DNA from: a virus
Length of the DNA: 64,000 bases
Direction: 5' to 3' (one strand)
IMG/VR virus record: IMGVR_UViG_3300035105_000276
Span: 32,001 to 96,000 of that record
Of this stretch, positions 4,267 to 64,000 are shown piece by piece. A program made the translations under genes and the position numbers. Within the stretch, counting starts at the first letter, position 1, and every line of letters starts with the position of its first letter. The notes below the pieces were generated by a model. It saw only the letters and a program-made list of their open reading frames with translations. It was not told the DNA's origin and ran no database searches.

Positions 4267-5133
4267 ATGTCGTATGTGAGTAAGATGGACACCATAGAAT
4301 TTATGAACAGGCACCTGGAAGCCACAATGGGGGCCCGGGTACCCGATAAAAAACGAGCTCAGTTCCTACACACAATTCTGACTGAATTCCATACGAGTAC
4401 CTGTACTCAGGTACGAAAGCGTGAAATAGCATCCGATGTTATACGGGAAGTGTTTTTTTTATGCGTGCGCAATGCCGGGGGTAGGACATCGCCCTCAACT
4501 TCCATTGATGATATCCTTTCTCTGATGGTGAGCAATGTGATACAGGCCATTGAAAACTACGACCCGTCCATTGAAGCCAAGTTTTCATCGTTTTTAAGGG
4601 GATACCTTAAAAACGCGATATCCACTGCTTACAAAGATACATTCCTCATTCGGCACCCTTACAGATCCAGGATGGAAACCATTAAAAAGATTAAGGCTCT
4701 GCAAGACGGGGAAACAGAAAACCGGATGACCCCCAGGGAAAAGAAAGAGATGTTCGAAGAATTTGTACAGGCTCTGACCCCCGATGTATCATTTTTTGAA
4801 GATACTGAATGGGAACCCGGGTCTGTTGTAGACTCTGCTTTGCCCACCAACTGTGCGGAGCCTGTGGATGCAATGGAGCAGTTATTGTCCGGAGAAAAAC
4901 TTTATCTCCTGGGGCATGTACTGGCATATGACCACCCACTGTTATCCCCTAAAGAAAAACTGGTGATTAAGCATAGATACGGAGTATTCGGGCACGAAAA
5001 ATTGACCCTGGAGGAGGTGGCTGAAAGATTCCACTCTCTAGATTGGCGGGCAACAAAGGAATGGGTATTTCAATTGGAAAAGCGAGCTCTAGATAAAATC
5101 AGAGCCCACTTCCAACTTTACGCTCTGGAATAG
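4267..5133 (+). CDS. Sigma-70 family RNA polymerase sigma factor
   Basis: Region 2 AIENYDPSIEAKFSSFLRGYLKNAI. Region 4 LSPKEKLVIKHRYG..LTLEEVA..TKEWVFQLEKRALDKIR. Confidence 0.85.
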   Translation: MSYVSKMDTIEFMNRHLEATMGARVPDKKRAQFLHTILTEFHTSTCTQVRKREIASDVIREVFFLCVRNAGGRTSPSTSIDDILSLMVSNVIQAIENYDPSIEAKFSSFLRGYLKNAISTAYKDTFLIRHPYRSRMETIKKIKALQDGETENRMTPREKKEMFEEFVQALTPDVSFFEDTEWEPGSVVDSALPTNCAEPVDAMEQLLSGEKLYLLGHVLAYDHPLLSPKEKLVIKHRYGVFGHEKLTLEEVAERFHSLDWRATKEWVFQLEKRALDKIRAHFQLYALE

Positions 5134-5594: not shown

Positions 5595-6389
5595 TCAATT
5601 GTCCACTGTATTTTGGATACTACCTGCACCACTGGCACTATCAGTGATGTTTTTTCTGATACTACTGATATCTCGACTGGCACTCTGCTGCTTAAAAACG
5701 TATAGTTTACCTACGGCATGTTCAAACTTCACATAATGTGAGTTTGTATCACCTCCTAAATATCTAGTCAAAGCAAATTTTAAAGAATCGCCAGAATTTT
5801 GGCGTTTTCCCTGGTCCCAATAATGCGATAAAATGTACGCACCCGCTCTCATATTAATCACAGGATCGTATAAGTCCTTCAATTTACCTGCAATTCCAGC
5901 CGCCGTAAGTCCATCTTTATTATCCTCGTCAGCCAACCACACAGCCGGATTTATCTGAAGTAGCCCAACACAATCCGATTCGGAAACAGCGGCATAGTTA
6001 AAAGTTGACTCTACGAATGCCAAGGCAATCAGGTACGCTGGCGGAATGCCGAATTCTTCTCCCGCATCAACAGCAGCCTGGGCGATCATGTAGGCCAGAT
6101 CCGGAAATACCCGATAGTTAGAAACCATCACGAATCCAGCCAGCTGGTGTATTTGGTCATTTTCCTGGTCCGTGCCTGCCTCTTCTGCACCAATTTCAGG
6201 CACAATAGGTTCTGCATGTGTCTGTACAGGTTTCCATCCTTCATTTGGGAATACCTTTTGCGTTACCTGGGTAGCAGCCCCAATAGTCATTACCAGCAAA
6301 GCCAACGCCCCAAACAACGCTATTCCCCATCTTGGTAAATCAAACAATTTTAATCGCCTCCTTTTTTTCCGCCGCCAGGCGGGTTTCAT
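5595..6389 (-). CDS. Lytic transglycosylase (SLT) with N-terminal membrane anchor
   Basis: AFVESTF..AVS...VGLLQI..LYDPVIN..AGAYIL, plus a basic N-terminus followed by a hydrophobic helix. Confidence 0.85.
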   Translation of the reverse strand: MKPAWRRKKRRRLKLFDLPRWGIALFGALALLVMTIGAATQVTQKVFPNEGWKPVQTHAEPIVPEIGAEEAGTDQENDQIHQLAGFVMVSNYRVFPDLAYMIAQAAVDAGEEFGIPPAYLIALAFVESTFNYAAVSESDCVGLLQINPAVWLADEDNKDGLTAAGIAGKLKDLYDPVINMRAGAYILSHYWDQGKRQNSGDSLKFALTRYLGGDTNSHYVKFEHAVGKLYVFKQQSASRDISSIRKNITDSASGAGSIQNTVDN

Positions 6390-8298
6390 AATGAATACAA
6401 TCCTGTGCGTATGGCCATACCTGCCGTTCCAGGCACTCCATTCTTTTTGTAGTCGGGCATTTCATGCACACATTTGTGGATTGCATAAAATCCTTAACGT
6501 CCTGTTTTTTCGCAAGCATGGCCAGAATCCCATCTTCTACGGATACCGGATGCACCAGATCTTTCACCAGTGTTTTCCTGTCCTGCCCTATGCGATAGTT
6601 TCTTTCCAAAGACTGCAGCCGGTGGTCCAGATCCAGGCTGTAACTGTAATTAATCATAGATACAGCTGATGTCAGAGTCAGGCCAACCCCGGCGCTTACC
6701 TGGGATAAAAACACCAGATTACTTTTATTATCCTGAAATGCAGATTCGCACTGGGGGGTGTCCGAAGTTACGTATGGGATTTTCGCTTTATCCAGCATAT
6801 CCCCTATCAGAACCAAATCCGGTTTATACATCACCCAGATAATTGCTTTCTCCTGCTGTACAGAGTTCACCCCCAGGTCTGTGAGCAGCTCTTTCAACAG
6901 TTCCAGTTTAGGGTTCTTTTTGAAAAACAGCACCCGCCTGGCAGGTTTCCGCACAGGATGCTCTGGGTTATATTTTTGACACTCTTTGTCCCAGGGGAAT
7001 ACTTCTTTTTCACTGCCATCTTCCGGGAACATGCATTGCAGTAATGCGTCACAGGTATTGCACAGCCGGTAATCCCGTTCATGGCTTAAAATAATGAAAC
7101 CTGACAGAATCTGCCTCAGTTTATTCAGCTTAATGAGCGGCATCCCACATCGAATCTCTCCGTGAGTATCCGGTGATGGCCTTTCCAGGCTTGGCTTCAG
7201 TCCTCCTTTTAACGGCAGCCACACCGTATCATTATCTTTTATCGCATCGTATACATCCCGCTGTTCAGCAGACATTTCGTACTCTTCAATAATAAATGTC
7301 CTTTCAGGAAGATCGATGCACTCGTCCCTGTCTTTAATCAGCATGTATGGATCTATCAGCATTTTGAGATCATCCAGATTTTTATACCCTGTAATCACAT
7401 GCTTGTTGTAGGGTGAAAATTCGCAATACTTTCTACGAAATTCCCAATAATTGGATCCCAGTATTTCGCTGTCCATCACTTTGAATGGTACAAAAATATC
7501 AGTAGGTTTCCCCTTGGACAGAGTACCTGACAGCAGATATCTGTAAAATGCCCCTTCTGCTAGTTCGCATATTATTTTAGACCTTTCTTTATCGTGGCCC
7601 TGAAGCCTGGATGCTTCATCAATAATTACACAATCATATTCCAGTTTGTGGTAAAAATAATAATCCGCTTTTCCTGTTTTTGTGGGCTTGGGCCCCTCAA
7701 AATTTGATACCAGAATATCCCAGTCCTGGTCTTCGCCGTGCAGAACGCTTTCCCGTATTTTTTCCCGCTGTTTGGCAGTACCTCGATACAGAACTGCCTT
7801 CAGATTTGTGAATTTTTTAATCTCTTTCATCCAGGTGTCCATTACAATCACAGGTCCGAACACCAGAGCTCTACGCTTTGTAATGTCCAGGTAATGCACT
7901 GCAATAAATGTTTTACCCAGGCCCATTGCCAGGCCCAGGCCCAGGCGAGGGTAATTCAGCATGAACTCCAGTGCCTGAAGCTGGTGTACATAAGGGGCTA
8001 CGGAAAACGTGTACTCCAGGCCATTCACCGTAGTGAAGTTTTCCAACAGCTCCGGCACAGATTTCAGGTACTGTATCTGGTGCATAGCGGACTCAGCTGC
8101 TTTGCCTTTGGGCAACACTGCTTTGAAATCTTTCAGGCTGGTAACCCCCATAGGATAAGCCCCCAAAAAAGAGTTCACACGGCCGGCTTTAGGGAACGAT
8201 TTGTACTGAATGCGGTGAATTTTCTCCACATTAGGGTTGCGTGATTTAAAATAAAACTCCTGGCTTTTCGGAGAAAAATACAATGTTTCGTTAAGCAT
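6340..8298 (-). CDS. SNF2-family (SF2) helicase
   Basis: MGLGKT, IIDEAS, LSGT, GVGLTL, QSLERNYRIGQ. Confidence 0.9.
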   Translation of the reverse strand: MLNETLYFSPKSQEFYFKSRNPNVEKIHRIQYKSFPKAGRVNSFLGAYPMGVTSLKDFKAVLPKGKAAESAMHQIQYLKSVPELLENFTTVNGLEYTFSVAPYVHQLQALEFMLNYPRLGLGLAMGLGKTFIAVHYLDITKRRALVFGPVIVMDTWMKEIKKFTNLKAVLYRGTAKQREKIRESVLHGEDQDWDILVSNFEGPKPTKTGKADYYFYHKLEYDCVIIDEASRLQGHDKERSKIICELAEGAFYRYLLSGTLSKGKPTDIFVPFKVMDSEILGSNYWEFRRKYCEFSPYNKHVITGYKNLDDLKMLIDPYMLIKDRDECIDLPERTFIIEEYEMSAEQRDVYDAIKDNDTVWLPLKGGLKPSLERPSPDTHGEIRCGMPLIKLNKLRQILSGFIILSHERDYRLCNTCDALLQCMFPEDGSEKEVFPWDKECQKYNPEHPVRKPARRVLFFKKNPKLELLKELLTDLGVNSVQQEKAIIWVMYKPDLVLIGDMLDKAKIPYVTSDTPQCESAFQDNKSNLVFLSQVSAGVGLTLTSAVSMINYSYSLDLDHRLQSLERNYRIGQDRKTLVKDLVHPVSVEDGILAMLAKKQDVKDFMQSTNVCMKCPTTKRMECLERQVWPYAQDCIHYETRLAAEKKEAIKIV

Positions 8299-8509: not shown

Positions 8510-10204
8510 ATGACAATAGATGGATTTACCGGTGACAGTTTCGGCGCCAGAACCGGTACAAAATACACGCGTCTTTATAACAACCAGTTTTTTGATTACC
8601 TTTCAGAGCAGCTGCCCAAAGATCACAGGGAGATGATGAAATGGTGCGAAGTGGTATACCACAGCTCCCCTGCCCTGGTTAACGGGATTAAGAAGCTAAT
8701 CAGTTACCCCATCACCTCGTTCCAATACGAAACCAAATCAGAGACAGTCCGGGAAGAAACCAAGGATCTTCTGGAAAACAAGCTGAACATGATCAGCCAC
8801 TTGATTCAGACGGGGTTGGACTTTTATGTGTATGGGAATGCCTTCAGGGGTATCTATTACCCGTTTGTCCGTAACCTGGTGTGTAAACACTGCAACCACG
8901 CCACCAATATCAAGTATGCGAAATACACCTTACGCAAGGGTAAATTTGTTCTGGAGGGCTGTGGCCATTGCGGGAGAAAAGGCGTGGCCATTATAAAGGA
9001 CGAATTCAATTTTAACCCCGGCGAAATACGTTTAATTAACTGGGACCCTAAGCAGATACACCTGCTGTCCAACCCTATTACCACAGACACATCATATTAC
9101 TACGACCTCCCGCCCGTGTTAAAGCAGGGGCTGGCCAAGGGCGAAGAAATTATGGCAGCCACCTTGCCCTCCGTATTTATCGATGCGTTCTCTCAAAACA
9201 AGAGGGTACGGTTCAACGATAACTTTTATCATCTGAGAACTGCCAGTGTTGCCGGGTACTCTTCCGGGTGGGGCATCCCGCCTTTGGCCCCTGCTTTGAA
9301 ATTATTTTTGTACAATAGCATTCTGCGTAAAAGCGTGGAAGCCATCAGTATGGAACACATTACCCCCCAGCGTATTTTATACCCTCAGGGCACCTCGTCG
9401 GATCCGACCCTGGTATCTTCTTTGGGGAAATGGCGGGAGCAGGTTCAAAAGGCCATTGAGCGATGGAGAATGGACCCCAACTATGTGATGCTGGCCCCCT
9501 ACCCCACGGGTGTGGCCAACGTCGGCAGCCAGGGCCGGGCCATGATGCCCACGGCTGAGATTAAGCAGGTGGACCAGGACATGCTGCTGGCCCTGGATAT
9601 TCCCATTGAGTTTGTGTACGGAGGCATGAAGCTGGAAACAGGTTCCGTTAGCTTACGCATTCTTGAGAATCAGTTACGGCCTTATGTGAATCAGCTCACC
9701 CGGTATGTGAACTGGATCATTGATAACATCAACGCCAAGTACAATAAAAATTACTGCCATGTGAAGTTCGGGGATTTCACCCTGGCAGACGATATGATGA
9801 AACGCCAGCTGCTTATGCAGATGGCCGGCAACGGAGCCTCTCTGTCCACAGTCCAGGAATCCCTGGGGTTGGATCCGGATGAAGAGATGGAGAAACAGTA
9901 CGAAGATACCGTCAAACAGTACACCCAGCAGAAACGGGTGGAAACAGCTACCCGAAAAATCGACCAGAACATTATGAACCGTGCCACAGAACGGCAGCAG
10001 GCGGATCAGGATGGGACCCTTCCCAGCTATGATCAGCAAAAGCTGGTGGCTGCTGCACAGATGCGTGCCCAGGAGTTGCTGTCTGTGCCTTACGAGGAAC
10101 GCCGCAGTCTGCTGGCTCAGCTGAGCAATGAAGACTATGTGATGTATGCCCTTGTGTCTGCACAGATGGAGAGCATGCGAAATGCTATGGAGAAAATGGA
10201 GTAG
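8510..10204 (+). CDS. Putative portal protein with inserted zinc ribbon
   Basis: Size, SPALVNGIKKLISYPI, GLDFYVYGNAF, GWGIPPL, ALDIPIEF and LRILEN resemble portal folds. CKHC/CGHC insertion. Confidence 0.55.
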   Translation: MTIDGFTGDSFGARTGTKYTRLYNNQFFDYLSEQLPKDHREMMKWCEVVYHSSPALVNGIKKLISYPITSFQYETKSETVREETKDLLENKLNMISHLIQTGLDFYVYGNAFRGIYYPFVRNLVCKHCNHATNIKYAKYTLRKGKFVLEGCGHCGRKGVAIIKDEFNFNPGEIRLINWDPKQIHLLSNPITTDTSYYYDLPPVLKQGLAKGEEIMAATLPSVFIDAFSQNKRVRFNDNFYHLRTASVAGYSSGWGIPPLAPALKLFLYNSILRKSVEAISMEHITPQRILYPQGTSSDPTLVSSLGKWREQVQKAIERWRMDPNYVMLAPYPTGVANVGSQGRAMMPTAEIKQVDQDMLLALDIPIEFVYGGMKLETGSVSLRILENQLRPYVNQLTRYVNWIIDNINAKYNKNYCHVKFGDFTLADDMMKRQLLMQMAGNGASLSTVQESLGLDPDEEMEKQYEDTVKQYTQQKRVETATRKIDQNIMNRATERQQADQDGTLPSYDQQKLVAAAQMRAQELLSVPYEERRSLLAQLSNEDYVMYALVSAQMESMRNAMEKME

Positions 10205-10213
10205 GAGGAAGTT

Positions 10214-10594
10214 ATGCCAGGTGATTCATTTGTTGATATGATAAATGGGGTTAAAGAGTCTACGGCGGAACCTGCCAGTTTTGGTAACGGCCACGCCCAG
10301 CGCAAAAAAAGTATCAAAGACATCCAGGTGCGATATTTTGTGGCCCATATGGATGATCCCGGGGATCAGGATTTTATTGAGCATTTGTTCACGAAAGCGT
10401 TGCAGTGTGAAAATTCTTTGAATGCCCCAGGCGATGTCTGCATGTTCAAGGAAGAGTCCAACTTTGACAAAACCGGGGCATATACGGTTGTGGTCAAGTA
10501 CGCAGAGTATGTAGACCCCAGTGCAGATCCTTTGGAAGAGCCTGTTCGTGGTAGAAATTCGGACCCTGACTCTGTGGAGGATTTCGATGTCTAA
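10214..10594 (+). CDS. Hypothetical protein
   Basis: ORF with AGGAGG RBS, co-oriented in the + strand operon. Confidence 0.7.
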   Translation: MPGDSFVDMINGVKESTAEPASFGNGHAQRKKSIKDIQVRYFVAHMDDPGDQDFIEHLFTKALQCENSLNAPGDVCMFKEESNFDKTGAYTVVVKYAEYVDPSADPLEEPVRGRNSDPDSVEDFDV

Positions 10595-11159
10595 CCTGTC
10601 CATGAGCGATCTTGAGTCCCAACACTATCTAATGGATCTCAAACTTCCCAAAGTACGGCCTTTGACCATGGATATGACGGGCATAGGGTTCTGGGCCCGA
10701 CTGTGGAAAATGGTGAGGTATAAACGGCTGTGGCTGATGGAGGAGCCTCTGATTTTGTATGTGCCATGGCTTAACCGGACGTTTTTTATCCCAAAAGGGT
10801 ACGTACTTGACTTTGCCTCCATACCCAAATGGTTCTGGCCGATACTGTCCCCTACAGGGTTCATGCTGCTGGGGTCTATCCCACATGATTTCGGATTTCA
10901 GTACGGGGGGTTAATTGAAATAGTGGACGGGCAGATACTGGAATTCAATGAGTGGACCAAGCATGAGTTGGACACCCTGCTGCTTGATATCACAAAGTGT
11001 GTGGCCAGATCCGCTATCCCCGGCAACCTGGCGGGTATTGGACTCTTTGCAGGCAGCTGGGTTCCATGGAAAAAGTACCGGAAACAAGGGCAGGATGTTT
11101 ATGCTGACTACCCCCAATTTTTAACCAGAACAGATACATCGGAAATGATATATGCCTGA
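10587..11159 (+). CDS. DUF1353-like protein
   Basis: IPKGYVLDFASIP..W..HDF motif. Start reassigned to ATG 10587 after GGAGG. Confidence 0.7.
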   Translation: MSNLSMSDLESQHYLMDLKLPKVRPLTMDMTGIGFWARLWKMVRYKRLWLMEEPLILYVPWLNRTFFIPKGYVLDFASIPKWFWPILSPTGFMLLGSIPHDFGFQYGGLIEIVDGQILEFNEWTKHELDTLLLDITKCVARSAIPGNLAGIGLFAGSWVPWKKYRKQGQDVYADYPQFLTRTDTSEMIYA

Positions 11160-14100
11160 TACACGCCCCATTATTACCCATCCGGAAGAGGTTCGCCAGA
11201 GTATTTTCAATAAGGTTAAAGAAGCCCTGGCTGCTAAATTTCCCATTGAAACAACTCAATTGGTGGTAGATATATCCGACATCGAGGTTGACCACAAAAT
11301 ACTTCCCCATTCAAAACAAAAGAAAATTCGGATGTCCAAGGGTAACGCGTCTTCAGGAGTGTACTGCACCTTGACGGTGAAAGATAAAGAATCCGGGCAG
11401 GTTCTTCACACTTTGAAACGCCACCGGATTATGAATATTCCGTATTATACGGACCGGTACACATTCATTGTGGACGGCAATGAGTATAACCTGGTGAACC
11501 AGCTTCGGACAAAAAGCGGAGTGTACACCCGGAAGCGGGGGAACGAGGAGCTGGAAAGTTCTTTCAACCTGGCCAAGGGTGCCAATTTTAAAATTCTGAT
11601 GGACCCTGATACCGGCATATTCAAGATGAGTATTCTGCACGCAACCCTGCCATTGCTGGCAGTTTTGAAAGTGCTGGGTGCGAACCCGGCCAGCGTGAAG
11701 GAGGCCCTGGGGGAAGAGCTATACTCGAAGAATGCGTCGTTCTCCTCTACACAGTACGGACGTACCGTGGATACCCTGTATACAAAGCTGGTGAAGTATA
11801 AAAACAACCTGGGGGACTCTGCTTCTAAAGATGAGAAAATCAAAGCCATACGGGCTTATTTCGCAGATACCCAGCTGGATCCTGAAACTACCCTGATCAC
11901 CCTGGGGGAGAGCTTCAACCGGGTTCAGGTGCAGACGATTCTTCAGGCGACTAAAAAGATGCTCCAGGTGTTCAACGAAGAAGAGGACGTGGATAACCGG
12001 GACGGCCTGGAGTTCCAAAAGGTGTTCACTCCGGAGGATATTATAAAAGAGGTACTGGAGAAAAGTACCCGGGAAGTGACAAAACTAAAAGAGAAGCTGA
12101 ACTCATTTTCTTTCTCAGGTGGTGCGAAGCCGGGTACTCCGGAAGCAGCCCAGAAGCTTAAAGCCCTGTTCTCCCCCAGCGTATTTACCCGGCCGGTACG
12201 CTCATTTCTGGCCACCAGCTCCATCAGCCGGCTACCGGATCAGATAAACCCCATGGAGATCATGGACGGTGCCTCCATTGTCACCCGCCTGGGCGAAGGG
12301 GCTATCTCTTCTGAGCAGGCAGTGCCTGACGAGACCCGTGCTGTGCAGTATTCCTATATGGGCCTTATTGACCCTGTTATGGCCCCTGAGAGCAGTAAGG
12401 TGGGAATTGATAACCGGTTCGCTGTTAGAGCCTTGAAAGGAAACCAGGATAACGAGCTGTACAAAGAGGTACTGAATTCTAAAACCGGTAAAGTGGAACA
12501 GGTACGGGCCATTGATCTTTATAATAAGAAAGTAGGGTTCCCGGATTCTCCTGGTATGAAAAAAGCAGACACAGACAAAATTTCTGCCGTGTATCAGGGG
12601 CGAATGGTTGAAGTGCCCAGATCTGAACTGGATTTCCAGATCCCAACCCCGCACCATTTGAATGCAGCCGCCACAAACAATATTCCTTTTTTAAATGCAA
12701 ACCAGGCCAACCGTATTTTAATGGCCGCCAAACATCAGTCCCAGGCCCTGCCCCTGGTTGAAAGAGAAACCAGGCTGGTGGAGTCCTCCATGACATCTAC
12801 AGGCAGCCCCAACATTGTAACCCAGCTGGGCGGTTTCCTGGTACCAAAATCCCCAGTGGACGGAGTGGTGTCTAAAATCACCGAAGACTTTATTTACATC
12901 AAAGATGCTGACGGCAAGCAGCATACGGTGGACTATGCCACTCACATGCCCCTGGCCAGCAAAACAGCGCTGCACAATACCATCACGGTTCAGGTGGGGG
13001 ATACAGTTAAAAAAGGCGAGGCTCTGGGGGATAACACCTTTACCAAAAATGGCAAGGCAGCTACCGGGGTAAATCTGAATGTGGCGTACATGCCGTATAA
13101 AGGGTATAACCATGAGGACGGAATTGTAATTTCTGAGAGTGCGGCCAAAAGACTGACATCGATTCATAGCAATACAGTCCAGGTTACTTTGGATAAAACC
13201 ACTATTCTGGATAAGAACAAGTTCAAAGGGGCTTTCCCCACTGAATTTACGACCAAACAACTGAATAAATTGGATGACAAAGGTGTAGTAAAAAAAGGCG
13301 AGGTTCTGGAAGAAGGGGATCCTGTTATTTTATTGCTCAGCGATGCATCTGAGAACAGGGTGAACCAGGTGCTGGGAAAACTACACAAGAGTCTTGTGAC
13401 ACCCTATGATAACATCAGTGAAGCGTACGACGGATCGTACCCCGCCAAGGTGGTGGAGGTTCAGAACTCAGGAAAACATATCACTGTGCTGCTGGAAGTG
13501 AATAAGCCGGCCGGCATCGGGGACAAACTGGGTGGAACTTACGGAAACAAAGGGGTTATTACCCGGATTGAGCCGGATGATAAAATTGTGAAAGATGAAG
13601 ACGGCAACCCGCTGGACCTTATTTTTACCAGTGCGGGGGTTATCGGCCGGATAAATCCATCCCAGACCCTGGAGACCGCCCTGGGCAAAATTGCAAAGAA
13701 AACGGGTAAGCCCTACCAGATAGAAAATTATTCTCATCCGGACTATGTGGATTTTGTCCGAAAAGAAATGAAAAATAATAAGGTACGGGAAACCGATACC
13801 TTGACAGACCCTGAAACTGGTAAGAAGATTCCCGGGATTTTTACGGGGGTGCAGCACATCCAGAAATTTCATAAAACCACGGACACCAACTTTTCAGGGC
13901 GAGGGGTACTGGGTGCCTATGATCAGGACGATGCCCCGGTTGGTTCAGGGATGTCCGGGCCCAAGGCCCTGGGCGGCATGGAGGTGAATGCCCTTCTGGC
14001 ACACAATGCCCGAGCTTTCCTGCGTGAAAGTACCATGCTCCGGGCTTCTAAGAACAATGAGTTCTGGAATAATTTTCAGTATGGCGGGGTGCCCCATTTT

Positions 14101-15567
14101 CCGTCTGAAAAGAAAACTTTCAACAAATTTTTAGCCACGCTGAAGCAGGCCGGCATTAACGTTGAAAAGAAAGGAGATACCTTTGTTGCCAGTCCTCTGA
14201 CAGATAAAGACGTGATGGAAATGAGTGCCGGTGAGGTACAAAACGCTTTGCGTGTGGATGCCAAGACTGTACAGCCTGAAAAAGGTGGGTTGTTTGACCC
14301 TGTGATCACAGGGGGGCTGAAAGGTGAAAGATGGAGCCACATAACCTTGGCAGAGCCTGTGATAAATCCTGTGTTTGAGGACTGTGCATCTGCCCTGCTG
14401 GAAGTGACTAAAAAAGATTTGCAGACCATGTTCGAGGTAAAAGGTGGGGACTACATTAAAGGGGAGTTGAATAAAATTGATGTGGCCAAAGCCCTGGCAG
14501 AGAGTGAGAAAAAACTGAACGACACCCGGGTAAAGGGGGCTGCCCTTGATAAACTGGTGAGAAAGGTGAAGTACCTGCGGGTGTTGAAAGAACGTAATTT
14601 AAAGGCAGGTGATGCGTATGTGCTGTCTGTGGTTCCCGTAACGCCCCCTGTGATGCGCTCTATTTCTGTGAGCAAAACCGGGGATTTGATGCCCAATGAC
14701 AGCAATGAGTTTTACAAGAATCTGATTCTGAACAACCAGGCGTTCAAGGACATAAAAAAAGAACAGGGGTTTGACGATGCCAAACGGGAGAACAGAGCTG
14801 CCCTGCAGCAGAGCGTTAAAGAATTGACTGGGGTAGTGAGTCCCAGCTCTCCCCACCTTAAAAATAGAGGGGCTAAAGGGGCCATACGGTTCATTGCCGG
14901 AGACCAGCCCAAGTACGGGTACTTTCAGCGGAAAGCCATATACTCGAAGATGAACTTGACCGGCCGGGCCACTATTGCTCCGGATGAAACCCTGGAGCTG
15001 GACGAGGTAGGACTGCCGGAAGAGATGGCCTGGGAGATGTACACTCCATTTATTTTGCGGCAGTTGACTCAAAGAGGGTTTACGGCAAAAGAGGCCAAGG
15101 ACGAGGTGGAGAATCGGACAGCCAAGGCCAAGGAAGTGCTGATGAAGGAGCTGGACAAGCGGCCGGTGATTGTGAACCGGGCACCTACTTTGTGGAAGCA
15201 TAGTATGGTGGCTGCTAAGCCGAAGTTGCGGTCGGGTAAGACGTTGATGATGAACACTCTGTGGGAGTCATCGTTGGGCAGTGATTTTGATGGTGACACG
15301 ATGCAGATACACCTGCCTATCACGGACGAGGCCATCCAGGAAAGTAAAAATATGTTTGCTTCCAGTCAGGTTCTCAGTGACAAAAAGCGGGACCAGATTT
15401 TAATGTCACCCTCCCAGGAACCCATTGTCGGGCTTTACGAAGTGACAAAGAATCTTGGTAAGTTCACCGGAGGTGCTGTGAAAAGGTACAAGACCGAAGC
15501 CGAGGCATGGGATGCTTACTACAAAGGAACTTTGAAAATGACAGATACAGTGGAGATTCGAGCATGA
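11152..15567 (+). CDS. Phage multisubunit-type RNA polymerase, beta fused to N-terminal half of beta'
   Basis: Beta motifs: PESSKVG, NQANRILMAAKHQSQA, GYNHEDGIVIS, GDKL..GNKGVI, GGMEVNALLAH. Beta' motifs: GGLFDP, HITLAEP, VPVTPPVMR, NRAPTL, catalytic DFDGD, PSQEPIVGLY. Confidence 0.93.
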   Translation: MPDTRPIITHPEEVRQSIFNKVKEALAAKFPIETTQLVVDISDIEVDHKILPHSKQKKIRMSKGNASSGVYCTLTVKDKESGQVLHTLKRHRIMNIPYYTDRYTFIVDGNEYNLVNQLRTKSGVYTRKRGNEELESSFNLAKGANFKILMDPDTGIFKMSILHATLPLLAVLKVLGANPASVKEALGEELYSKNASFSSTQYGRTVDTLYTKLVKYKNNLGDSASKDEKIKAIRAYFADTQLDPETTLITLGESFNRVQVQTILQATKKMLQVFNEEEDVDNRDGLEFQKVFTPEDIIKEVLEKSTREVTKLKEKLNSFSFSGGAKPGTPEAAQKLKALFSPSVFTRPVRSFLATSSISRLPDQINPMEIMDGASIVTRLGEGAISSEQAVPDETRAVQYSYMGLIDPVMAPESSKVGIDNRFAVRALKGNQDNELYKEVLNSKTGKVEQVRAIDLYNKKVGFPDSPGMKKADTDKISAVYQGRMVEVPRSELDFQIPTPHHLNAAATNNIPFLNANQANRILMAAKHQSQALPLVERETRLVESSMTSTGSPNIVTQLGGFLVPKSPVDGVVSKITEDFIYIKDADGKQHTVDYATHMPLASKTALHNTITVQVGDTVKKGEALGDNTFTKNGKAATGVNLNVAYMPYKGYNHEDGIVISESAAKRLTSIHSNTVQVTLDKTTILDKNKFKGAFPTEFTTKQLNKLDDKGVVKKGEVLEEGDPVILLLSDASENRVNQVLGKLHKSLVTPYDNISEAYDGSYPAKVVEVQNSGKHITVLLEVNKPAGIGDKLGGTYGNKGVITRIEPDDKIVKDEDGNPLDLIFTSAGVIGRINPSQTLETALGKIAKKTGKPYQIENYSHPDYVDFVRKEMKNNKVRETDTLTDPETGKKIPGIFTGVQHIQKFHKTTDTNFSGRGVLGAYDQDDAPVGSGMSGPKALGGMEVNALLAHNARAFLRESTMLRASKNNEFWNNFQYGGVPHFPSEKKTFNKFLATLKQAGINVEKKGDTFVASPLTDKDVMEMSAGEVQNALRVDAKTVQPEKGGLFDPVITGGLKGERWSHITLAEPVINPVFEDCASALLEVTKKDLQTMFEVKGGDYIKGELNKIDVAKALAESEKKLNDTRVKGAALDKLVRKVKYLRVLKERNLKAGDAYVLSVVPVTPPVMRSISVSKTGDLMPNDSNEFYKNLILNNQAFKDIKKEQGFDDAKRENRAALQQSVKELTGVVSPSSPHLKNRGAKGAIRFIAGDQPKYGYFQRKAIYSKMNLTGRATIAPDETLELDEVGLPEEMAWEMYTPFILRQLTQRGFTAKEAKDEVENRTAKAKEVLMKELDKRPVIVNRAPTLWKHSMVAAKPKLRSGKTLMMNTLWESSLGSDFDGDTMQIHLPITDEAIQESKNMFASSQVLSDKKRDQILMSPSQEPIVGLYEVTKNLGKFTGGAVKRYKTEAEAWDAYYKGTLKMTDTVEIRA

Positions 15568-16145
15568 AGCGACCAAATAAAAACCCGGTGCCCCCCATCC
15601 TCGAATGGGTAGTGCTCCTGATGGCACTCACTATTCTCATTACCAACTCCTTCGCTCACGCCGGCGACTACGACAGATCTCGGTTCAAGCACTGGATCGA
15701 TGCAGACAGTGACTGTCAGGATACCCGAGTGGAATGCCTCCTGGAACACACCCTGGCCCCTGCCACCTTTCGCACGGAACGTAAGTGTTACGTTACATCC
15801 GGGATGTGGGAATGCCCCTACACCGGCAAAGTTTTTACAAACCCACGCAGGCTGGACGTGGACCACATTGTACCCTTGCAGCACGCCTGGCTGCACGGAG
15901 CTGCCGGCTGGGATGATGCCACACGTGAAAAGTTCGCCAATGATATGGAAAACCTTTTACCAGTGTATGCTGGTGCAAACAGATCAAAAGGGGCCCGGGG
16001 GCCTGATGAGTGGGTACCACCCTCTTCGAATTTTTTAAAAGATTACGCCGTACTCTGGATTTACGTAAAAGTGAAATACGGCCTTGAATTTACTGACGCT
16101 GAATACACTGCTTTGGGGAGACTGCTGCAGCATGACGATAAGTGA
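15564..16145 (+). CDS. Secreted HNH nuclease (DUF1524-like)
   Basis: Signal peptide ending in AHA; WIDADSDCQDTR, DVDHIVPL, FAND..NL, NRSKG. ATGA overlap with the RNAP stop. Confidence 0.8.
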   Translation: MKRPNKNPVPPILEWVVLLMALTILITNSFAHAGDYDRSRFKHWIDADSDCQDTRVECLLEHTLAPATFRTERKCYVTSGMWECPYTGKVFTNPRRLDVDHIVPLQHAWLHGAAGWDDATREKFANDMENLLPVYAGANRSKGARGPDEWVPPSSNFLKDYAVLWIYVKVKYGLEFTDAEYTALGRLLQHDDK

Positions 16146-21469: not shown

Positions 21470-22636
21470 TTACCCTTTCAAAACCCCTAAGGGAGTAAGT
21501 TTTACCTCGATTTCCACCAGGTCATCCTGGTTGGCCATCACTGTGTCAATATCCTTGTATGCTCCAATAGCCTCACTAAGGCTGCTTTTGCCCTTAATAC
21601 TATGCACAATCTTCCCCATCCGTGCAATCTCTACATCTAAATTCAGGCTCTCTCTGGCTTTTGTACTACTCATAGCCCTGCCGGCACCATGTGAGCACGA
21701 ATTGAAACTATCACGATCCCCCTTGCCAAAACCAAGGTATGAGGGAGTGCCCTGGGATCCAGGGATCACAACTATGTCACCTTCGGCTGCTTTTACGGCC
21801 CCCTTGCGATGAACCCAAACATCTTGGCCAAAGTGGTTCTCCAGGCTGGCATAATTGTGGGTCACATCAACTGTATGGCAAATTTCAGCCCCCATAAAGC
21901 CCTGGCCCATGAAAACCTTTATGCAATTTTTGAGTATCAGGGCCCTGGATACTTTGGCGAAACCAATGCAATAATTCATCTCTTTGAGGTACACTTGGCC
22001 TTCATCAGAATCCACAGGTAAAAATGCCAGCCCATTATCCATGAACTGGAGATTGTACCATTTTGCATTCATCTCTTTTGCGATCCAGTTATAATGGTTG
22101 GCAACCTTATACCCCAGATTCCTGGACCCTGAATGAATCATCAGATAAATAAACCCATCAGACCCTTTCTGGATTTCAATGAAATGGTTGCCGCCCCCGA
22201 GAGTCCCCAATTGTTTCAAAGCAGACTGAAATTGGGACTCTACAACAGGCAGATAATCCGTAGGGTGCTCGGTACTTGGCATTAAACTGTCAGATTGAGG
22301 GTAGGAATGGTGATTTTTACCAACCGGTACCCTCTCCCTGATCCCCTCAAATACTGATCTGATCTGTTCCGCAGAGATTTCTTTTAAGGGTAATTGATAG
22401 CATGTAACTCCACAGCCAATATCTGATCCTACAGCGTATGGTACAATCACCCCATGGGTTGCGAGGACACCACCAATTGGCATTCCGTAGCCCATGTGGG
22501 CGTCAGGCATCAAAGCAATGTGCTTGAAAGCAAAAGGTAAATTGGCCAGGTTATGGGCCTGCTTCAAGGCTGATTTCTCCAGGTCGTCCAACCACATTTT
22601 GATTGGAAGTTTCTGAGAAGTGTCAACTTTTTTCAT
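21470..22636 (-). CDS. rtcB: RtcB 3'-phosphate/5'-OH RNA ligase
   Basis: MPDAH.GYG.PIG, DIGCG, GTLGGGNHFIE, IHSGSR, HN, HRKGA, IPGS.G, SHGAGR, AYKDI. Start taken at MKKVDT. Confidence 0.95.
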   Translation of the reverse strand: MKKVDTSQKLPIKMWLDDLEKSALKQAHNLANLPFAFKHIALMPDAHMGYGMPIGGVLATHGVIVPYAVGSDIGCGVTCYQLPLKEISAEQIRSVFEGIRERVPVGKNHHSYPQSDSLMPSTEHPTDYLPVVESQFQSALKQLGTLGGGNHFIEIQKGSDGFIYLMIHSGSRNLGYKVANHYNWIAKEMNAKWYNLQFMDNGLAFLPVDSDEGQVYLKEMNYCIGFAKVSRALILKNCIKVFMGQGFMGAEICHTVDVTHNYASLENHFGQDVWVHRKGAVKAAEGDIVVIPGSQGTPSYLGFGKGDRDSFNSCSHGAGRAMSSTKARESLNLDVEIARMGKIVHSIKGKSSLSEAIGAYKDIDTVMANQDDLVEIEVKLTPLGVLKG

Positions 22637-22637
22637 A

Positions 22638-22997
22638 CTATTCCTCTCCCTGTACATACCTAAGATTTTCGCGGGTAATAACAAATGAATAATGCTTAAT
22701 CTCCCCTGTATTGAAAGATACCAGAGCGTCCTCACCTCTTTTTTGTGTAGGCTTTACCCACATATCTCCCCCGAGGTACACCTTATCCCCAGGTTTCATA
22801 TCTATATAAAATCTTGTAACATCTTCCCACGTAGTATCCCCCTTCTCCTCTTTTTCCAGGGTAGCCGCGATACTCAGGCGGGTAACCTGCTCTTCGTCGA
22901 ATGGGATAGGATCTGGGCAAAGGTCTCCCAGAATTTTCAGAGGGGCTTCGTGGATATCCCCGTATAAAATTAAATGTATTCGTTCTTCGTGGGTCAT
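22638..22997 (-). CDS. Hypothetical protein
   Basis: ORF in the operon. Confidence 0.55.
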   Translation of the reverse strand: MTHEERIHLILYGDIHEAPLKILGDLCPDPIPFDEEQVTRLSIAATLEKEEKGDTTWEDVTRFYIDMKPGDKVYLGGDMWVKPTQKRGEDALVSFNTGEIKHYSFVITRENLRYVQGEE

Positions 22998-42172: not shown

Positions 42173-43543
42173 TCAGGCCGGGGAGGAAACTTGGCTTGCA
42201 CCCTGAAGGGCATAAACAAAATTATATCCGTTCTGACGGGATATGAGTTTGCAATACTTCCAGGATATTCCCTGGACGGTTTCCGTATTAGTTTGGATAT
42301 TAAAGCTGCCGGACTTCCGGACAGCCACTCTGCCAATATACGTTCCTTTCTTCTTACCAGTAGGAACGATCGCTTTAACCATATCCCCGGTGGCAAAACC
42401 GTGAACTGTTTTCTGATCCATCAGGTATCCCCGGGGGAAGCCGTATTTGTCCACACGGGTTCTTTGATAACTGCCACGGCCCATGGCCTTTATCAGGAAC
42501 ACGTTTTGTTTCCAGCCGGATACCGAATCCACTTTGCCGGTGCAGGCAGCATCCAGACAATGGGTTTTGGGTATATCCAGCCGGGACCGGTTGTATTTGG
42601 TCCTGCCACCGGTTGAGCATTCTACCGGCAGGCCCAGGCCCCTGAATTCAAAAAAGATAGCGTTCCTGGTGGCGTTTACCGCTGCGGTTGATGTAAGGGA
42701 GGGTCTTTTACCTTCCAGGAACCTGGTGGCATTTTTGACCCGGACCTGATCTATCTTTTTTTGTGACCTGGATAAAAGGCGGATCCAGTCTGTCGGCTGC
42801 AGGTTCTTTTTTGATTCCTGATTACAGGCTTTACAGGCAATGGCCAGGTTACTGATCCGGTTTGATCCTTTATCCCCTTTTGAGGGATTGCGGGGGATGA
42901 AATGCTCAATTTCCAAGACCGGATCCTTGCTCAAGCCATTGCAATAAACACATTTTCTGCCATATCGTTCCAACAGATATTCCCGAAGCTCGTATCCGAA
43001 CAGGGTCCCTTGCTGATACTCAATCCCTGAAATATCCGGGTTCTGCAACTTCTGAGCATCGAACCGGACCCGTTCAAGGACAATGCCTGTGACCGGGCAG
43101 AGCCTTTGATACTTTTTCACCCAGGATAAAGTGTTATCCACCCGTGATCTGAGACTTGGCGGAAGCCACCCTTTGGGCCGGGTTCTGTTATCGAACCGGG
43201 GCTTTCTGTGCCAGAGGTTTGCGGTCCTTCGCCTTCTCCGGTAATTGGATCTTTGATCCAGTTTCTTCCGGATGGCAGCGCCCCGATGGGTCAGTTCCGA
43301 CAGGTGCAGTATCTGGGCATGACCGCCATCCTGTCTCACCACGGCCATGCCGGTTGTTTTGGCTCCGGGATCAATTTTAACATTAACCGGCTGCACATCA
43401 CTGTCCTCCCGGATCCGGTCAACGAGTCTAATGGTGAATGGAAACATATGGTGAACCCGGGCCCGGCCCTGTGCAAGAAACTTTCTTGCCCTGGCCGGAT
43501 GGCACGGCATCAACGGATCACCGTTCTTGTCAATTACAAACAC
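42173..43543 (-). CDS. iscB: IscB RNA-guided endonuclease
   Basis: PLMP domain (PLMPCHPARAR), RuvC-I IDPG, Arg-rich bridge helix, HNH (CVYC..EHFIP..N..C..CN), RuvC-III THCLDA. Start probably GTG 43543. Confidence 0.92.
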   Translation of the reverse strand: MFVIDKNGDPLMPCHPARARKFLAQGRARVHHMFPFTIRLVDRIREDSDVQPVNVKIDPGAKTTGMAVVRQDGGHAQILHLSELTHRGAAIRKKLDQRSNYRRRRRTANLWHRKPRFDNRTRPKGWLPPSLRSRVDNTLSWVKKYQRLCPVTGIVLERVRFDAQKLQNPDISGIEYQQGTLFGYELREYLLERYGRKCVYCNGLSKDPVLEIEHFIPRNPSKGDKGSNRISNLAIACKACNQESKKNLQPTDWIRLLSRSQKKIDQVRVKNATRFLEGKRPSLTSTAAVNATRNAIFFEFRGLGLPVECSTGGRTKYNRSRLDIPKTHCLDAACTGKVDSVSGWKQNVFLIKAMGRGSYQRTRVDKYGFPRGYLMDQKTVHGFATGDMVKAIVPTGKKKGTYIGRVAVRKSGSFNIQTNTETVQGISWKYCKLISRQNGYNFVYALQGASQVSSPA

Positions 43544-43544
43544 A

Positions 43545-43864
43545 CGGCTTACGCCGTTCTCCGCCGAAGCACCCATAGAGCACACGGCGGGTGACGGTTC
43601 AACCCTGGCATCGGTTGAACTCTCCCCTCGGGATTGTTGCACAGCGGCATTCTGCCCGGACCCGTTTCGTCCATACCCCTGTAGGTTTTCTGCAACCCGG
43701 GCTTCAAGTGGGCGGGACTGAGGAAGCATCCCGCCGTTGGTCTTTAGCTCTCTATGCAACTTTTAATGTTCTCCTTTTTTGTATTTGCCATTAAACTTTG
43801 AACATTTCCCTGGTCAACCATGGAGCCTTTTACAAGCTCCGGCCTTTAGGCCGGGGTAGTTGAC
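43545..43864 (-). ncRNA. omegaRNA / HEARO-type RNA of IscB element 1
   Basis: Conserved GTCAACTACCC...GTTGACCAG 5' stem upstream of iscB. Confidence 0.75.
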
Positions 43865-63138: not shown

Positions 63139-63149
63139 ATGTAAAACCT

Positions 63150-63369
63150 CCCTGTTAAAGGGTAATGTTTGCCTCGCCAAAGTTAGCACCAGGTTTGACG
63201 TAAGTAGCACTGGCTTAACCCCTTAGACCTGTTTAACCACTTACCGTAGAGCAGCAGGCTGGCAAGCACCTGCTGGTACCTATTTCTGGTGTAACGTAGT
63301 GCATGTGCACTAAGGCTGGTCAGCGTGGGGCTTTTGCAAGCCCACATGGTTTAGCTGTGGGTAGCTGAC
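63150..63369 (-). ncRNA. omegaRNA of IscB element 2
   Basis: Typical GACCAGCCTTAGT..ACTACGTT and GGCGAGGCAAACATTACC blocks. Confidence 0.75.
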
Positions 63370-63479: not shown

Positions 63480-64000
63480 ATTTTAGGGCAGTGCCTTCCA
63501 AAACACCCTCTAATTTCCACGTAGAACTCTCCCTGAATACAGTCCTAGTCACTCAACCCTGAAACTTAAAATTTGACCCCTTCCTGGGGCTCACTTATGC
63601 ATATTCACCTCCATGCCAAGGCTGGTTTTACCCAAAGATTTCTGCCAGAGATTTTTTAATCACATTTTTTTCCGTCCGGAACTACAAACTCAATGCGTAC
63701 ACACCCATTCTTTGTATGAAAATATAAAAATGGTGGATAGGTTCCCCGGTGCAGAACCGAAAAGTCCGTGCCCCTCCTTCACGGACTTCCACCTCAAACC
63801 TTTGAACCAGGATAGGTATGGCACAGACATTTGCACAGTATTTGATCAACAAGGGTCTCCCCGGGGATCTGCACGTTACAGAGCCTTTGGATAAAAAGGC
63901 ACTCGAAGCCCTCCTCATAAAAGCCCACCAAAGACACCCGGGGAGATACCCTTCCATTGTCATGCATCTCAAACGTCTGGGGAACAAGTTTGCCACCTAT

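What the first reader, a model, noticed from the sequence alone, without database searches (positions are those of the whole stretch)
11152..15567. Minimal beta-beta'N fused phage RNA polymerase lacking the bridge-helix/trigger-loop half
Seen: one 1471-aa chain carries beta regions through GGMEVNAL, then beta' regions up to DFDGD and PSQEPIVGLY, and stops. Beta' regions F, G and H are absent, and the N-terminal beta' zinc finger is deleted. Conserved residues are altered (RHGNKG>TYGNKG, NADFDGD>GSDFDGD, HARS>SGRG). Established: phiKZ-like phages split RNAP subunits, and mReC Caudovirales encode deep-branching beta/beta'. Inference: the C-terminal half is a separate gene outside this window, and the enzyme may pair with the sigma factor at 4267 without alpha subunits.
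Basis: partly seen in the sequence, partly recalled or inferred. Interest (0 to 1): 0.7.

Follow-up and report, generated by a model that had tools for sequence, protein, structure and literature searches.

The report
Split phage RNA polymerase, beta-beta'N fusion
This phage gene encodes the whole beta subunit of a bacterial-type RNA polymerase fused to the first half of beta', the second half is a separate gene 48 kb away, and the same layout already exists in a cultured phage, so it is a real but not unprecedented enzyme.

Summary
ORF 11152-15567 (+) is an intact 1471-aa chain: complete beta (about residues 1-1008) runs directly into beta' (about 1009-1471) and stops about 90 residues after the DFDGD Mg2+ loop.

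The inference is also right. A 628-aa beta'C gene with bridge helix, trigger loop and second Zn site starts at window 63818 and runs off the window end.

The enzyme is not a truncated host copy. It belongs to a large phage family (441 IMG/VR stretches) whose RNAP gene follows the portal gene. In my trees the family lies outside all sampled Bacteria.

Relatives show three layouts: one about 2050-2120-aa beta-beta' chain, the two-piece form seen here, and a three-piece form. All split forms make one clade, so one fission of an intact beta' is the likeliest history.

Salmonella phage Arash has the same two-piece layout (gp206 and gp216). Its paper found both proteins and a sigma factor in particles.

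No alpha or omega homologue was detected. Sigma pairing and virion packaging remain inferred for this phage.

The scan met this family before on other DNA (e1-5344837, e1-5851480, e1-5954984).

The parts
11152..15567 (+). beta::beta'N fusion gene (1471 aa, P0001)
   Evidence: Single ORF. Pfam Rpb2_3, Rpb2_6, Rpb1_1 and Rpb1_2. PDB alignments to beta and beta'.
11152..14175 (+). beta portion, residues 1 to about 1008, ending ...LKQAGINVEKKG
   Evidence: The multiple alignment with bacterial rpoB places the bacterial beta C-terminus here. Coordinates.
13534..13554 (+). beta double-psi-barrel motif GTYGNKG (bacterial GRHGNKG)
   Evidence: G(S/T)YGNKG is found in 62 of the 121 related proteins scanned.
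12205..12303 (+). Counterpart of the rifampicin-pocket segment of beta, strongly altered
   Evidence: One search aligns FLATSSISRLPDQINPMEIMDGASIVTRLGEGA with bacterial [33 protein letters not shown]. That this segment is the Rif pocket is recalled, not tested.
14176..15564 (+). beta' N-terminal half, residues about 1009-1471, fused to beta without a linker
14308..14334 (+). Site of the deleted beta' zinc finger (TGGLKGERW)
   Evidence: The deletion is family-wide in the A1 consensus.
15277..15297 (+). Catalytic Mg2+ loop GSDFDGD (bacterial NADFDGD); the Asp triad is kept
   Evidence: (D1378, D1380, G1381, D1382 invariant).
63818..64000 (+). Start of the separate beta'C gene (628 aa; continues to G000 97704, about 1.7 kb beyond the window end)
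   Evidence: AGGA lies 6 nt before the ATG.
4267..5133 (+). Phage sigma-70-family factor (288 aa), candidate specificity subunit
   Evidence: Pfam Sigma70_r2 and r4. PHROG sigma factor. Weak PDB matches to SigA regions 2-4.
8510..10204 (+). Portal protein gene, conserved just upstream of the RNAP gene across the family
   Evidence: PHROG portal, E 5.7e-6. Homologue upstream of the RNAP gene in 42 family loci, including the annotated Arash portal.
15564..16145 (+). HNH / GmrSD_C-type nuclease ORF whose ATG overlaps the RNAP stop codon (ATGA); lineage-specific insert at the fission point
   Evidence: No homologue in the family loci searched.

Best explanation
The ORF is the larger of two catalytic polypeptides of a phage-encoded, bacterial-type RNA polymerase.

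The 1471-aa chain carries all of beta and, tethered directly to it, the beta' half. That half holds the clamp core, lid, clamp helices and the DFDGD Mg2+ site, so both double-psi barrels of the active centre sit in one chain. A separate 628-aa protein, beta'C, encoded 48 kb downstream, supplies the bridge helix, the trigger loop and the second zinc site. It must dock non-covalently to complete the enzyme, much as cyanobacterial RpoC2 docks to RpoC1.

The layout arose by one fission of an otherwise continuous beta' within a family that has beta fused to beta'. Nothing was lost at the break.

Inferred, not shown:
- The covalent beta-beta' tether replaces the alpha-dimer assembly platform.
- The phage sigma factor at 4267 gives promoter specificity.
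- The enzyme is packaged in the virion and injected to transcribe early genes independently of the host polymerase, as suggested for phage Arash.
- It is probably insensitive to rifampicin.
For: Shown here:
- Intact ORF with ordered beta then beta' domains.
- One beta'C gene in the record, aligning to beta' from just after the point where P0001 stops.
- In 26 examined junctions of relatives, 25 read through in frame with no stop, for example ...NDQIKVGG LSSTTGRFLIAGALPE... The window's two termini (...TDTVEIRA* and MAQTFAQYLINKGLPGDL) align flush to that sequence. The 26th (L059) reads through if TGA is taken as Trp.
- Census of the first IMG/VR scan plus 3 MAG contigs: 26 full fusions by the script, plus L021 and L049 by reading, 12 two-piece, 16 three-piece. 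Second scan of 79 loci: 61 two-piece, 8 full, 10 cut or partial.
- Trees: all split forms make one clade (FastTree 99; IQ-TREE SH-aLRT 98*, one change of state). Bacteria fall on one side (100*).
- The break lies about 15-20 aligned residues before the rpoC1/rpoC2 break of Melainabacteria.
- Catalytic Asp triad and GNKG lysine are invariant.
- One beta' barrel per genome in 4 of 4 genomes.
- No alpha or omega Pfam match in G000 or in the complete Arash genome, with 14 of 14 control genomes positive.
- A Sigma70_r4 gene in 3 of 4 family genomes, and a sigma annotated in the fourth.
- A portal homologue upstream in 42 loci.

From the Arash paper (PMC10585845, passages read): gp206 was the most abundant protein in purified particles, and gp216 and sigma gp10 were also detected.
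Against: - No experiment bears on this phage.
- Arash is only 33.6% identical. Its authors note that abundant enzymes might merely co-purify with particles.
- The window's sigma shows no BLAST-level similarity to Arash gp10.
- The record is 71% complete, so an alpha-like gene could lie in the missing part or be too divergent for Pfam. Use of host alpha and omega cannot be excluded.
- In the IQ-TREE tree, full and split forms are sister clades (full side only 87). The polarity (fission rather than re-fusion) therefore rests on outgroup comparison, not on nesting. The FastTree nesting (L012/L057 as sister) was not reproduced.
- The window deviates from the family consensus at NA>GS beside the Asp triad.
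- Bacterial sampling in the trees was biased by the search pattern and included no Archaea.
Confidence: 0.8

Rival explanations
1. It is a decaying or truncated polymerase gene, a pseudogene remnant or a fragment of a host rpoBC, with no function of its own.
For: The chain stops in the middle of beta'. Two residues beside the catalytic loop and two in the GRHGNKG motif differ from bacteria.
Against: - The ORF is intact over 1471 codons.
- Dozens of protein clusters of 1448-1502 aa end at the same place, as do 61 of 79 loci.
- The missing half is an intact gene in the same genome.
- Catalytic residues are invariant.
- The family lies outside sampled Bacteria.
- The neighbours are phage genes.
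Confidence: 0.02
2. The two pieces are rejoined after expression by a split intein or by RNA trans-splicing, so the working enzyme is a single beta-beta' chain as in the full-fusion relatives.
For: Close relatives carry inteins in this gene (Pfam intein and LAGLIDADG domains; insertion points). A nuclease ORF abuts the 3' end.
Against: The two termini align flush with the continuous sequence of full-length relatives. That leaves no room for an intein N-half (about 100 aa) or C-half (about 35 aa). The two genes are 48 kb apart here, and 0.5-5 kb apart in 45 relatives, each with its own start codon.
Confidence: 0.03
3. The enzyme is a real polymerase but works as a hybrid. The phage beta-beta'N and beta'C assemble on host alpha2 and omega, and the phage sigma redirects the host polymerase as well. 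It serves as a middle or late, non-virion enzyme rather than an injected one.
For: No phage alpha or omega was detected. Bacterial core assembly normally needs alpha2 (established knowledge, recalled). Virion detection in Arash could be carry-over, as its authors say.
Against: - Natural and engineered beta-beta' fusions lessen the need for an assembly scaffold (recalled, not tested).
- The conserved position next to the portal gene in 42 loci and the top spectral count in Arash particles favour packaging.
- There is only one polymerase per genome, so the same enzyme would have to serve all stages if host RNAP is not used.
Confidence: 0.15

Closest known systems
Salmonella phage Arash gp206 + gp216 (OQ632216.1; PMC10585845), and Vibrio phages D69, D181, D148
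   Same: - gp206 matches P0001 over 100% of its length at 33.6% identity, with the same beta::beta'N architecture (1525-codon open frame, stop to stop).
- There is a separate beta'C gene (gp216).
- The portal gene lies just upstream.
- A sigma factor is encoded.

   Different: - In Arash beta'C lies 4.7 kb downstream; here it lies 48 kb downstream.
- Arash has no HNH gene at the break.
- The sigmas are not alignable by BLAST.
- The Arash record and paper label the proteins beta and beta'. In the passages I read the paper does not remark on the fusion.
Full-length single-chain beta-beta' RNAPs of the same phage family (IMG/VR, about 2050-2120 aa)
   Same: Same family at 33-38% identity, the same zinc-finger deletion, the same portal adjacency and the same beta-to-beta' junction.
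   Different: They read through the point where the window's gene stops. The window belongs to the single clade that has the break.
Cyanobacterial, melainabacterial and plastid split beta' (RpoC1/gamma + RpoC2)
   Same: Beta' is divided in the same inter-domain stretch, after the catalytic loop and before the bridge helix. rpoC1 frames match P0001 up to residues 1432-1470, and rpoC2 frames match from beta'C residues 19-24.
   Different: - The break is about 15-20 aligned residues earlier in the phage.
- The origin is independent, since those sequences group with Bacteria.
- There, beta is not fused to RpoC1, and alpha and omega are present (established knowledge, recalled).
mReC, multisubunit-RNAP-encoding Caudovirales (Weinheimer and Aylward 2020, PMC7481178)
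   Same: Metagenomic tailed-phage contigs with beta and beta' recognisable by cellular HMMs, placed outside cellular clades (sections 6, 7, 12, 13 read). Sibling metagenome ids of their named examples occur among my family loci (L187, L191, L228, L229).
   Different: In the parts I read, the paper does not mention a fusion or split in mReC (one search found 'fused' and 'fusion' only for crAssphage). Its filter demands NADxDGD, which this protein lacks. Whether mReC equals this family, the unfused L061-L070 type, or both could not be checked because the supplements were closed.
phiKZ / AR9-type jumbo-phage multisubunit RNAPs
   Same: Phage-encoded two-barrel polymerases with a split beta'. One of their enzyme sets is virion-packaged (PMC7598289 and PMC7824862, passages read).
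   Different: Those have beta split into 2-3 pieces, two enzyme sets per genome and no sigma factor, and they are highly divergent. Here beta is whole and fused, there is one enzyme per genome, a sigma is present, and similarity to bacterial subunits is easily detected (E about 1e-56).
Cellular RpoBC fusions (two Patescibacteria MAG contigs here; Helicobacter and Wolbachia by recall)
   Same: Beta and beta' in one reading frame: L088 at 2284 aa and L146 at 2300 aa.
   Different: Those keep the zinc finger (L088) and group with Bacteria. They are independent fusions.

Membership tests
Bacterial-type multisubunit RNAP large subunits (beta + beta') | Beta double-psi barrel with the GNKG lysine motif | tested here: met
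   PF00562, E 3.9e-41. GTYGNKG aligned to GRHGNKG. G798 and K800 invariant.
Bacterial-type multisubunit RNAP large subunits (beta + beta') | Beta' double-psi barrel with the DxDGD Mg2+ triad | tested here: met
   PF00623, E 1.1e-21. GSDFDGD aligned to NADFDGD. D1378, D1380 and D1382 invariant.
Bacterial-type multisubunit RNAP large subunits (beta + beta') | Bridge helix and trigger loop in the same beta' chain | tested here: not met
   Absent from P0001. Present in the separate 628-aa gene (PF04998; alignment).
Bacterial-type multisubunit RNAP large subunits (beta + beta') | Beta' N-terminal zinc-binding domain | tested here: not met
   The Cys-rich stretch is replaced by GLK-GE. One Cys in residues 1012-1100.
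Bacterial-type multisubunit RNAP large subunits (beta + beta') | Genome-encoded alpha and omega subunits | tested here: not met
   PF01000, PF01193 and PF01192 give 0 of 2 records at E <= 10, with controls 14 of 14. G000 is 71% complete. Use of host subunits is not testable here.
Arash-like portal-adjacent fused phage RNAP family | Full-length homology to the beta::beta'N chain of a cultured member | tested here: met
   Arash gp206: 33.6% identity over residues 6-1469.
Arash-like portal-adjacent fused phage RNAP family | Portal gene directly upstream | tested here: met
   Window 8510-10204 matches the upstream ORF in 42 loci, including the annotated Arash portal.
Arash-like portal-adjacent fused phage RNAP family | Presence of the enzyme and a sigma factor in virions | not testable with these tools
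   Known only for Arash by mass spectrometry (PMC10585845).
mReC (as filtered in PMC7481178) | NADxDGD motif in the COG0086 match | tested here: not met
   The window has GSDFDGD. 75 of the 121 related proteins have NA before the triad. Filter text read.
mReC (as filtered in PMC7481178) | Placement in their deep-branching clade | not testable with these tools
   The contig lists are in closed supplements. My trees show only that the family is outside the sampled Bacteria.
phiKZ/AR9-type split RNAP | Fragmented beta, two enzyme sets, no sigma | tested here: not met
   Beta is whole and fused. One beta' barrel per genome. A sigma is present.
Cyanobacterial-type split beta' (RpoC1/RpoC2) | Same break point and common descent | tested here: not met
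   The break is about 15-20 aligned residues apart. Melainabacterial sequences group with Bacteria, not with the phage family. This is a functional analogy only.
Split-intein trans-spliced protein | Intein halves at the two new termini | tested here: not met
   The termini align flush with the continuous relatives.

The most novel reading that the evidence does not exclude
This family is a self-sufficient, alpha-less, sigma-dependent bacterial-type RNA polymerase that is carried in the phage particle. The covalent beta-beta' tether replaces the alpha-dimer scaffold. The series of full fusion, two pieces (this window) and three pieces would then be a living record of how a tethered polymerase can be cut at permissive hinges. 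One such hinge is the one that cyanobacteria and plastids use. Cutting may ease passage of the enzyme through the tail, and it suggests a route toward the highly fragmented polymerases of phiKZ-like phages.
Probability: 0.3. Interest if true: 0.75.

Novelty: new member of a known kind. Interest (0 to 1): 0.5.

Why it matters
Bacterial RNA polymerase is thought to need the alpha dimer to assemble beta and beta'. Its beta' zinc finger is close to universal.

This phage family lacks any detectable alpha, omega or zinc finger, yet keeps a sigma factor and every catalytic residue. It offers natural one-, two- and three-chain versions of the same enzyme. That makes three questions directly testable with a few recombinant proteins:
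- what a minimal sigma-dependent two-barrel polymerase needs;
- where beta' may be cut;
- how a 230-kDa enzyme could be delivered by a phage.

The altered rifampicin-pocket segment also predicts drug-insensitive transcription during infection. For this window alone the gain is modest, because a cultured phage already shows the same layout.

Tried and rejected
- **Homing-endonuclease origin of the split.** The window has an HNH ORF fused to the RNAP stop codon. However, 0 of 10 gap ORFs and 0 of 9 from other split relatives had a nuclease domain. One was ferritin-like and two had weak DnaJ-like hits. The HNH ORF has no homologue in the family loci. I found no support for the idea, and it is not excluded for the original event.
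- **Conserved gene between the two pieces as a hidden subunit.** One ORF cluster occurs in 29 of 45 two-piece loci. It has no Pfam hit and no match in G000. I left it open.
- **Sigma docking on beta'N.** Complex prediction used residues 1018-1471 of A1 against sigma alignment A2. It scored 0.00 in both runs against a mark of 0.32, and the tool's verdict was no answer. This is not evidence either way.
- **Sigma orthology with Arash gp10.** There was no significant BLASTP match.
- **Literature.** Supplements were closed and could hold such information.
- **MAFFT run.** The --auto run timed out and was redone with FFT-NS-2.
- **Rows left out of the trees.** Loci with under 1400 aa of sequence were left out of the first tree. 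The second tree used 52 hand-picked rows out of about 230 held.
Full report
**What is there**

The window is bases 32001-96000 of a 127,133-bp IMG/VR virus record that CheckV rates 71% complete. ORF 11152-15567 (+) is open for 1471 codons.

Pfam finds Rpb2 domain 3, Rpb2 domain 6 (residues 570-914, E 3.9e-41), Rpb1 domain 1 and Rpb1 domain 2, in that order. Against solved structures the protein matches bacterial beta over about residues 66-1027 (best E 3.4e-56). It matches bacterial beta' positions of about 144-556 over residues 1049-1471 (E about 1e-39).

A multiple alignment with bacterial rpoB-rpoC loci puts the end of beta at about residue 1008 (...LKQAGINVEKKG). Beta' starts at about residue 1009 (DTFVASPLTD...), with no linker between them.

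All of them are present:
- GTYGNKG at 795-801
- SGRG at 915-918
- GGMEVNAL at 941-948
- GSDFDGD at 1376-1382
- PSQEPIVGLY at 1420-1429

HMMER alignments to solved chains show them opposite GRHGNKG, HARS, GEMEVWAL and NADFDGD.

The beta' zinc finger is deleted. Bacteria have a Cys-rich stretch of about 32 residues after ...GLF..(I/V)FGP. This protein has GLK-GE there, and residues 1012-1100 hold a single Cys. The deletion is family-wide (consensus GGLFDPxxTGGxxGxxWSHIxLAEPV).

The motif changes are not signs of decay. G(S/T)YGNKG occurs in 62 of the 121 related proteins scanned. The Asp triad and the GNKG lysine are invariant. The two residues before the triad vary across the family: NA in 75, NS in 12, NL in 12, GS in 3.

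**The missing half**

Pfam Rpb1 domain 5 matches once in the record, at G000 96316-97272. The ORF is G000 95818-97704, which is window 63818 onward, so only 183 nt lie inside the window. It encodes 628 aa.

It aligns to C. difficile beta' 576-1058 and to E. coli beta' 722-941. The alignment includes the bridge helix (GRKAYQDVQLSTASPGEMSKVM) and the trigger loop (QLALSAKH opposite QLTMRTFH). Four Cys occupy the place of the second zinc site. An AGGA lies 6 nt before its ATG.

Together the two genes give 2099 aa. That is a near-complete beta and beta' without lineage-specific inserts, not a drastically reduced enzyme.

**Relatives and layouts**

Cultured phages:
- tblastn against deposited phage genomes finds Salmonella phage Arash gp206 (33.6% identity over residues 6-1469).
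- It also finds Vibrio phages D69, D181 and D148 (33.2% identity, 97% coverage).
- In Arash the order is portal gp204, gp205, gp206. A second 'RNA polymerase' gene, gp216, lies 4.7 kb downstream and matches the window's beta'C.

Uncultured relatives:
- The protein database holds over 100 clusters of about 1450-1500 aa with the same domains.
- 441 IMG/VR stretches encode a relative.

Reading the loci frame by frame gave three layouts:
- **One chain.** A single beta-beta' ORF of about 2050-2120 aa: 26 loci by script in the first set, plus L021 and L049 with an insert, and 8 in the second set.
- **Two pieces**, as in the window: 12 loci in the first set and 61 of 79 in the second. In 45 of those 61, beta'C lies 0.5-5.2 kb downstream.
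- **Three pieces**: 16 loci, with an extra break near P0001 residue 1095. These pieces lie about 3 kb and 8 kb apart in a complete 181-kb genome.

At the point where the window's gene stops, 25 of 26 examined relatives continue in the same frame with no stop codon. The 26th (L059) does so if TGA is read as Trp, which its two other in-frame TGAs support. The window's two termini align flush with that continuous sequence. Nothing was lost at the break, and there is no room for split-intein halves.

In the window's own subclade (54-57% identity) no beta'C lies within 5.3-7 kb downstream (L157, L160, L161, L223). In one 92%-complete relative of another split subclade the distance is about 51 kb.

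A more distant phage type (L061-L070) has separate beta' (about 1000 aa) and beta (about 1360-1400 aa) genes in the reverse order.

**Trees**

The FastTree tree used 161 rows and 1913 columns. The 69 bacterial sequences fall on one side of a branch (100*). The fused family is one group (100). All split forms fall in a single clade (99), with the three-piece forms nested beside Arash.

The IQ-TREE (LG+G4, short search) tree used 52 chosen rows and 1909 columns. Split forms again form one clade (18 rows, SH-aLRT 98*). One change of state separates them from the 21 full forms.

In this second tree full and split forms are sisters (87). The direction of change therefore rests on the outgroups. Bacteria (mostly) and the distant phage type have an unbroken beta', which makes fission the parsimonious reading.

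Caveats:
- The bacterial sample came from one pattern scan: Patescibacteria, Actinomycetota, Melainabacteria, Thermotogota, Spirochaetota, Bacteroidota, Bacillota and Gammaproteobacteria.
- No Archaea were included.
- Many rows have unusual amino-acid composition.

**Comparison with known splits**

Melainabacterial rpoC1 frames match P0001 up to residues 1432-1470, and rpoC2 frames match beta'C from residues 19-24. In the alignment the phage break lies about 15-20 residues before theirs. The same hinge has therefore been cut independently.

Two Patescibacteria contigs have fused rpoBC genes of 2284 and 2300 aa. These keep the zinc finger (L088) and group with Bacteria.

**How it probably works**

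The steps that are shown: both barrels and all catalytic residues are present, and the two genes together cover beta and beta'.

Further observations:
- There is one beta' barrel per genome in 4 of 4 genomes examined.
- No alpha (PF01000, PF01193) or omega (PF01192) match appears in this record or in the complete Arash genome, with 14 of 14 control genomes positive.
- A sigma-70-family gene is in the window. Sigma70_r4 matches 3 of 4 family genomes, and the fourth has an annotated sigma.
- A portal homologue lies just upstream of the polymerase gene in 42 family loci.
- The Arash paper (PMC10585845, passages read) reports gp206 as the protein with the most spectra in purified particles. It also detected gp216 and sigma gp10. 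The authors caution that abundant enzymes may co-purify.

From these I infer a sigma-dependent enzyme whose beta-beta' tether stands in for the alpha scaffold, carried in the particle for early transcription.

The segment that aligns to the bacterial [26 protein letters not shown] stretch reads FLATSSISRLPDQ..DGASIVTRLGEGA. By recall this is the rifampicin pocket, so insensitivity to the drug is likely but untested.

**What is known in print**

The mReC paper (PMC7481178; abstract and sections 6, 7, 12 and 13 read) describes phage contigs with beta and beta' that branch outside cells. In the parts I read it does not mention a fusion or a split. Its filter requires NADxDGD, which this protein fails.

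Its three named examples come from metagenome ids whose sibling ids occur among my family loci. The contig lists are in closed supplements, so identity with this family is unproven.

Two reviews of jumbo-phage polymerases (PMC7824862 and PMC7598289, passages read) do not cover this type. Searches found no description of the fusion and fission series.

The scan itself has met the family before: a full-length chain (e1-5344837, followed up), two other beta-beta'N chains (e1-5851480, e1-5954984), and the beta'C gene of this same genome (e1-6143797).

**Verdict**

The object is a new member of a known but barely studied kind. The same two-piece layout is deposited and detected by proteomics in phage Arash.

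The added value here is fourfold:
- the family-wide series of one, two and three chains;
- the single fission;
- the coincidence with the cyanobacterial hinge;
- the far displacement of beta'C in this lineage.

Noticed in passing
relatives P0003, P0004, P0007, P0010, P0028, P0112 (P0001 position about 1383) and P0005, P0010, P0019 (position about 793-795): Close relatives carry large inserts exactly at the two catalytic motifs of the polymerase. One sits right after DFDGD, beginning with Ser or Cys and carrying LAGLIDADG/Hom_end/intein Pfam domains. The other sits inside GDK|LGG..GNKG. The window's copy has neither.
   Followed up: partly
relatives P0075, P0090, P0098 (P0001 position about 584-593): An insert of about 120-270 residues in beta. 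Pfam lists GNAT acetyltransferase domains for P0098, and one source names P0075 as RNAP beta subunit / GNAT family acetyltransferase.
   Followed up: no
L059 (IMG/VR contig of 210 kb), 9962-16018: The polymerase frame holds three in-frame TGAs, one at a conserved Trp. With table 4 it becomes one 2019-aa beta-beta' chain, so this phage probably reads TGA as Trp.
   Followed up: partly
window 15564-16145 (+): An HNH / GmrSD_C-type nuclease ORF of 193 aa. Its ATG overlaps the polymerase stop codon (ATGA). No homologue was found in the related loci searched.
   Followed up: partly
window 42173-43759 (-) and 61855-63210 (-): ORF 42173-43759 combines RRXRR and HNH domains (IscB-like) by Pfam. ORF 61855-63210 lies about 600 nt upstream of the beta'C gene. 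Its N-terminal sequence looked RRXRR-like to me by eye, but I ran no Pfam scan on it (for the ORF).
   Followed up: no
window 45272-48703 (-): Ribonucleotide reductase large subunit interrupted by a LAGLIDADG-type insert, with a TSCPD domain at the end.
   Followed up: no
window 21470-22735 (-) and 6340-8298 (-): An RtcB RNA ligase gene and an SNF2-family helicase gene. The helicase lies next to the portal-polymerase block, as it does in Arash and 17 other loci.
   Followed up: no
L088 and L146 (Patescibacteria-type MAG contigs): Cellular rpoB and rpoC fused in one frame of 2284 and 2300 aa. L088 was seen to keep the zinc finger.
   Followed up: no
gaps between the two polymerase genes in 45 two-piece IMG/VR loci (for example L168:6228-6797, L165:9622-10047): One family of co-directional ORFs (median 163 aa) occupies the gap in 29 of 45 loci. 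It has no Pfam match and no counterpart in the window's genome.
   Followed up: partly
Vibrio phages D181 and D148 (OZ196140.1, OZ196545.1): Their polymerase match comes in two pieces about 1 kb further apart than in D69, with an annotated homing endonuclease under the match.
   Followed up: no
window 63762-63790 (+): A 9-bp hairpin (AAGTCCGTG...CACGGACTT) lies about 30 nt before the beta'C start codon. It is not followed by a T run.
   Followed up: no
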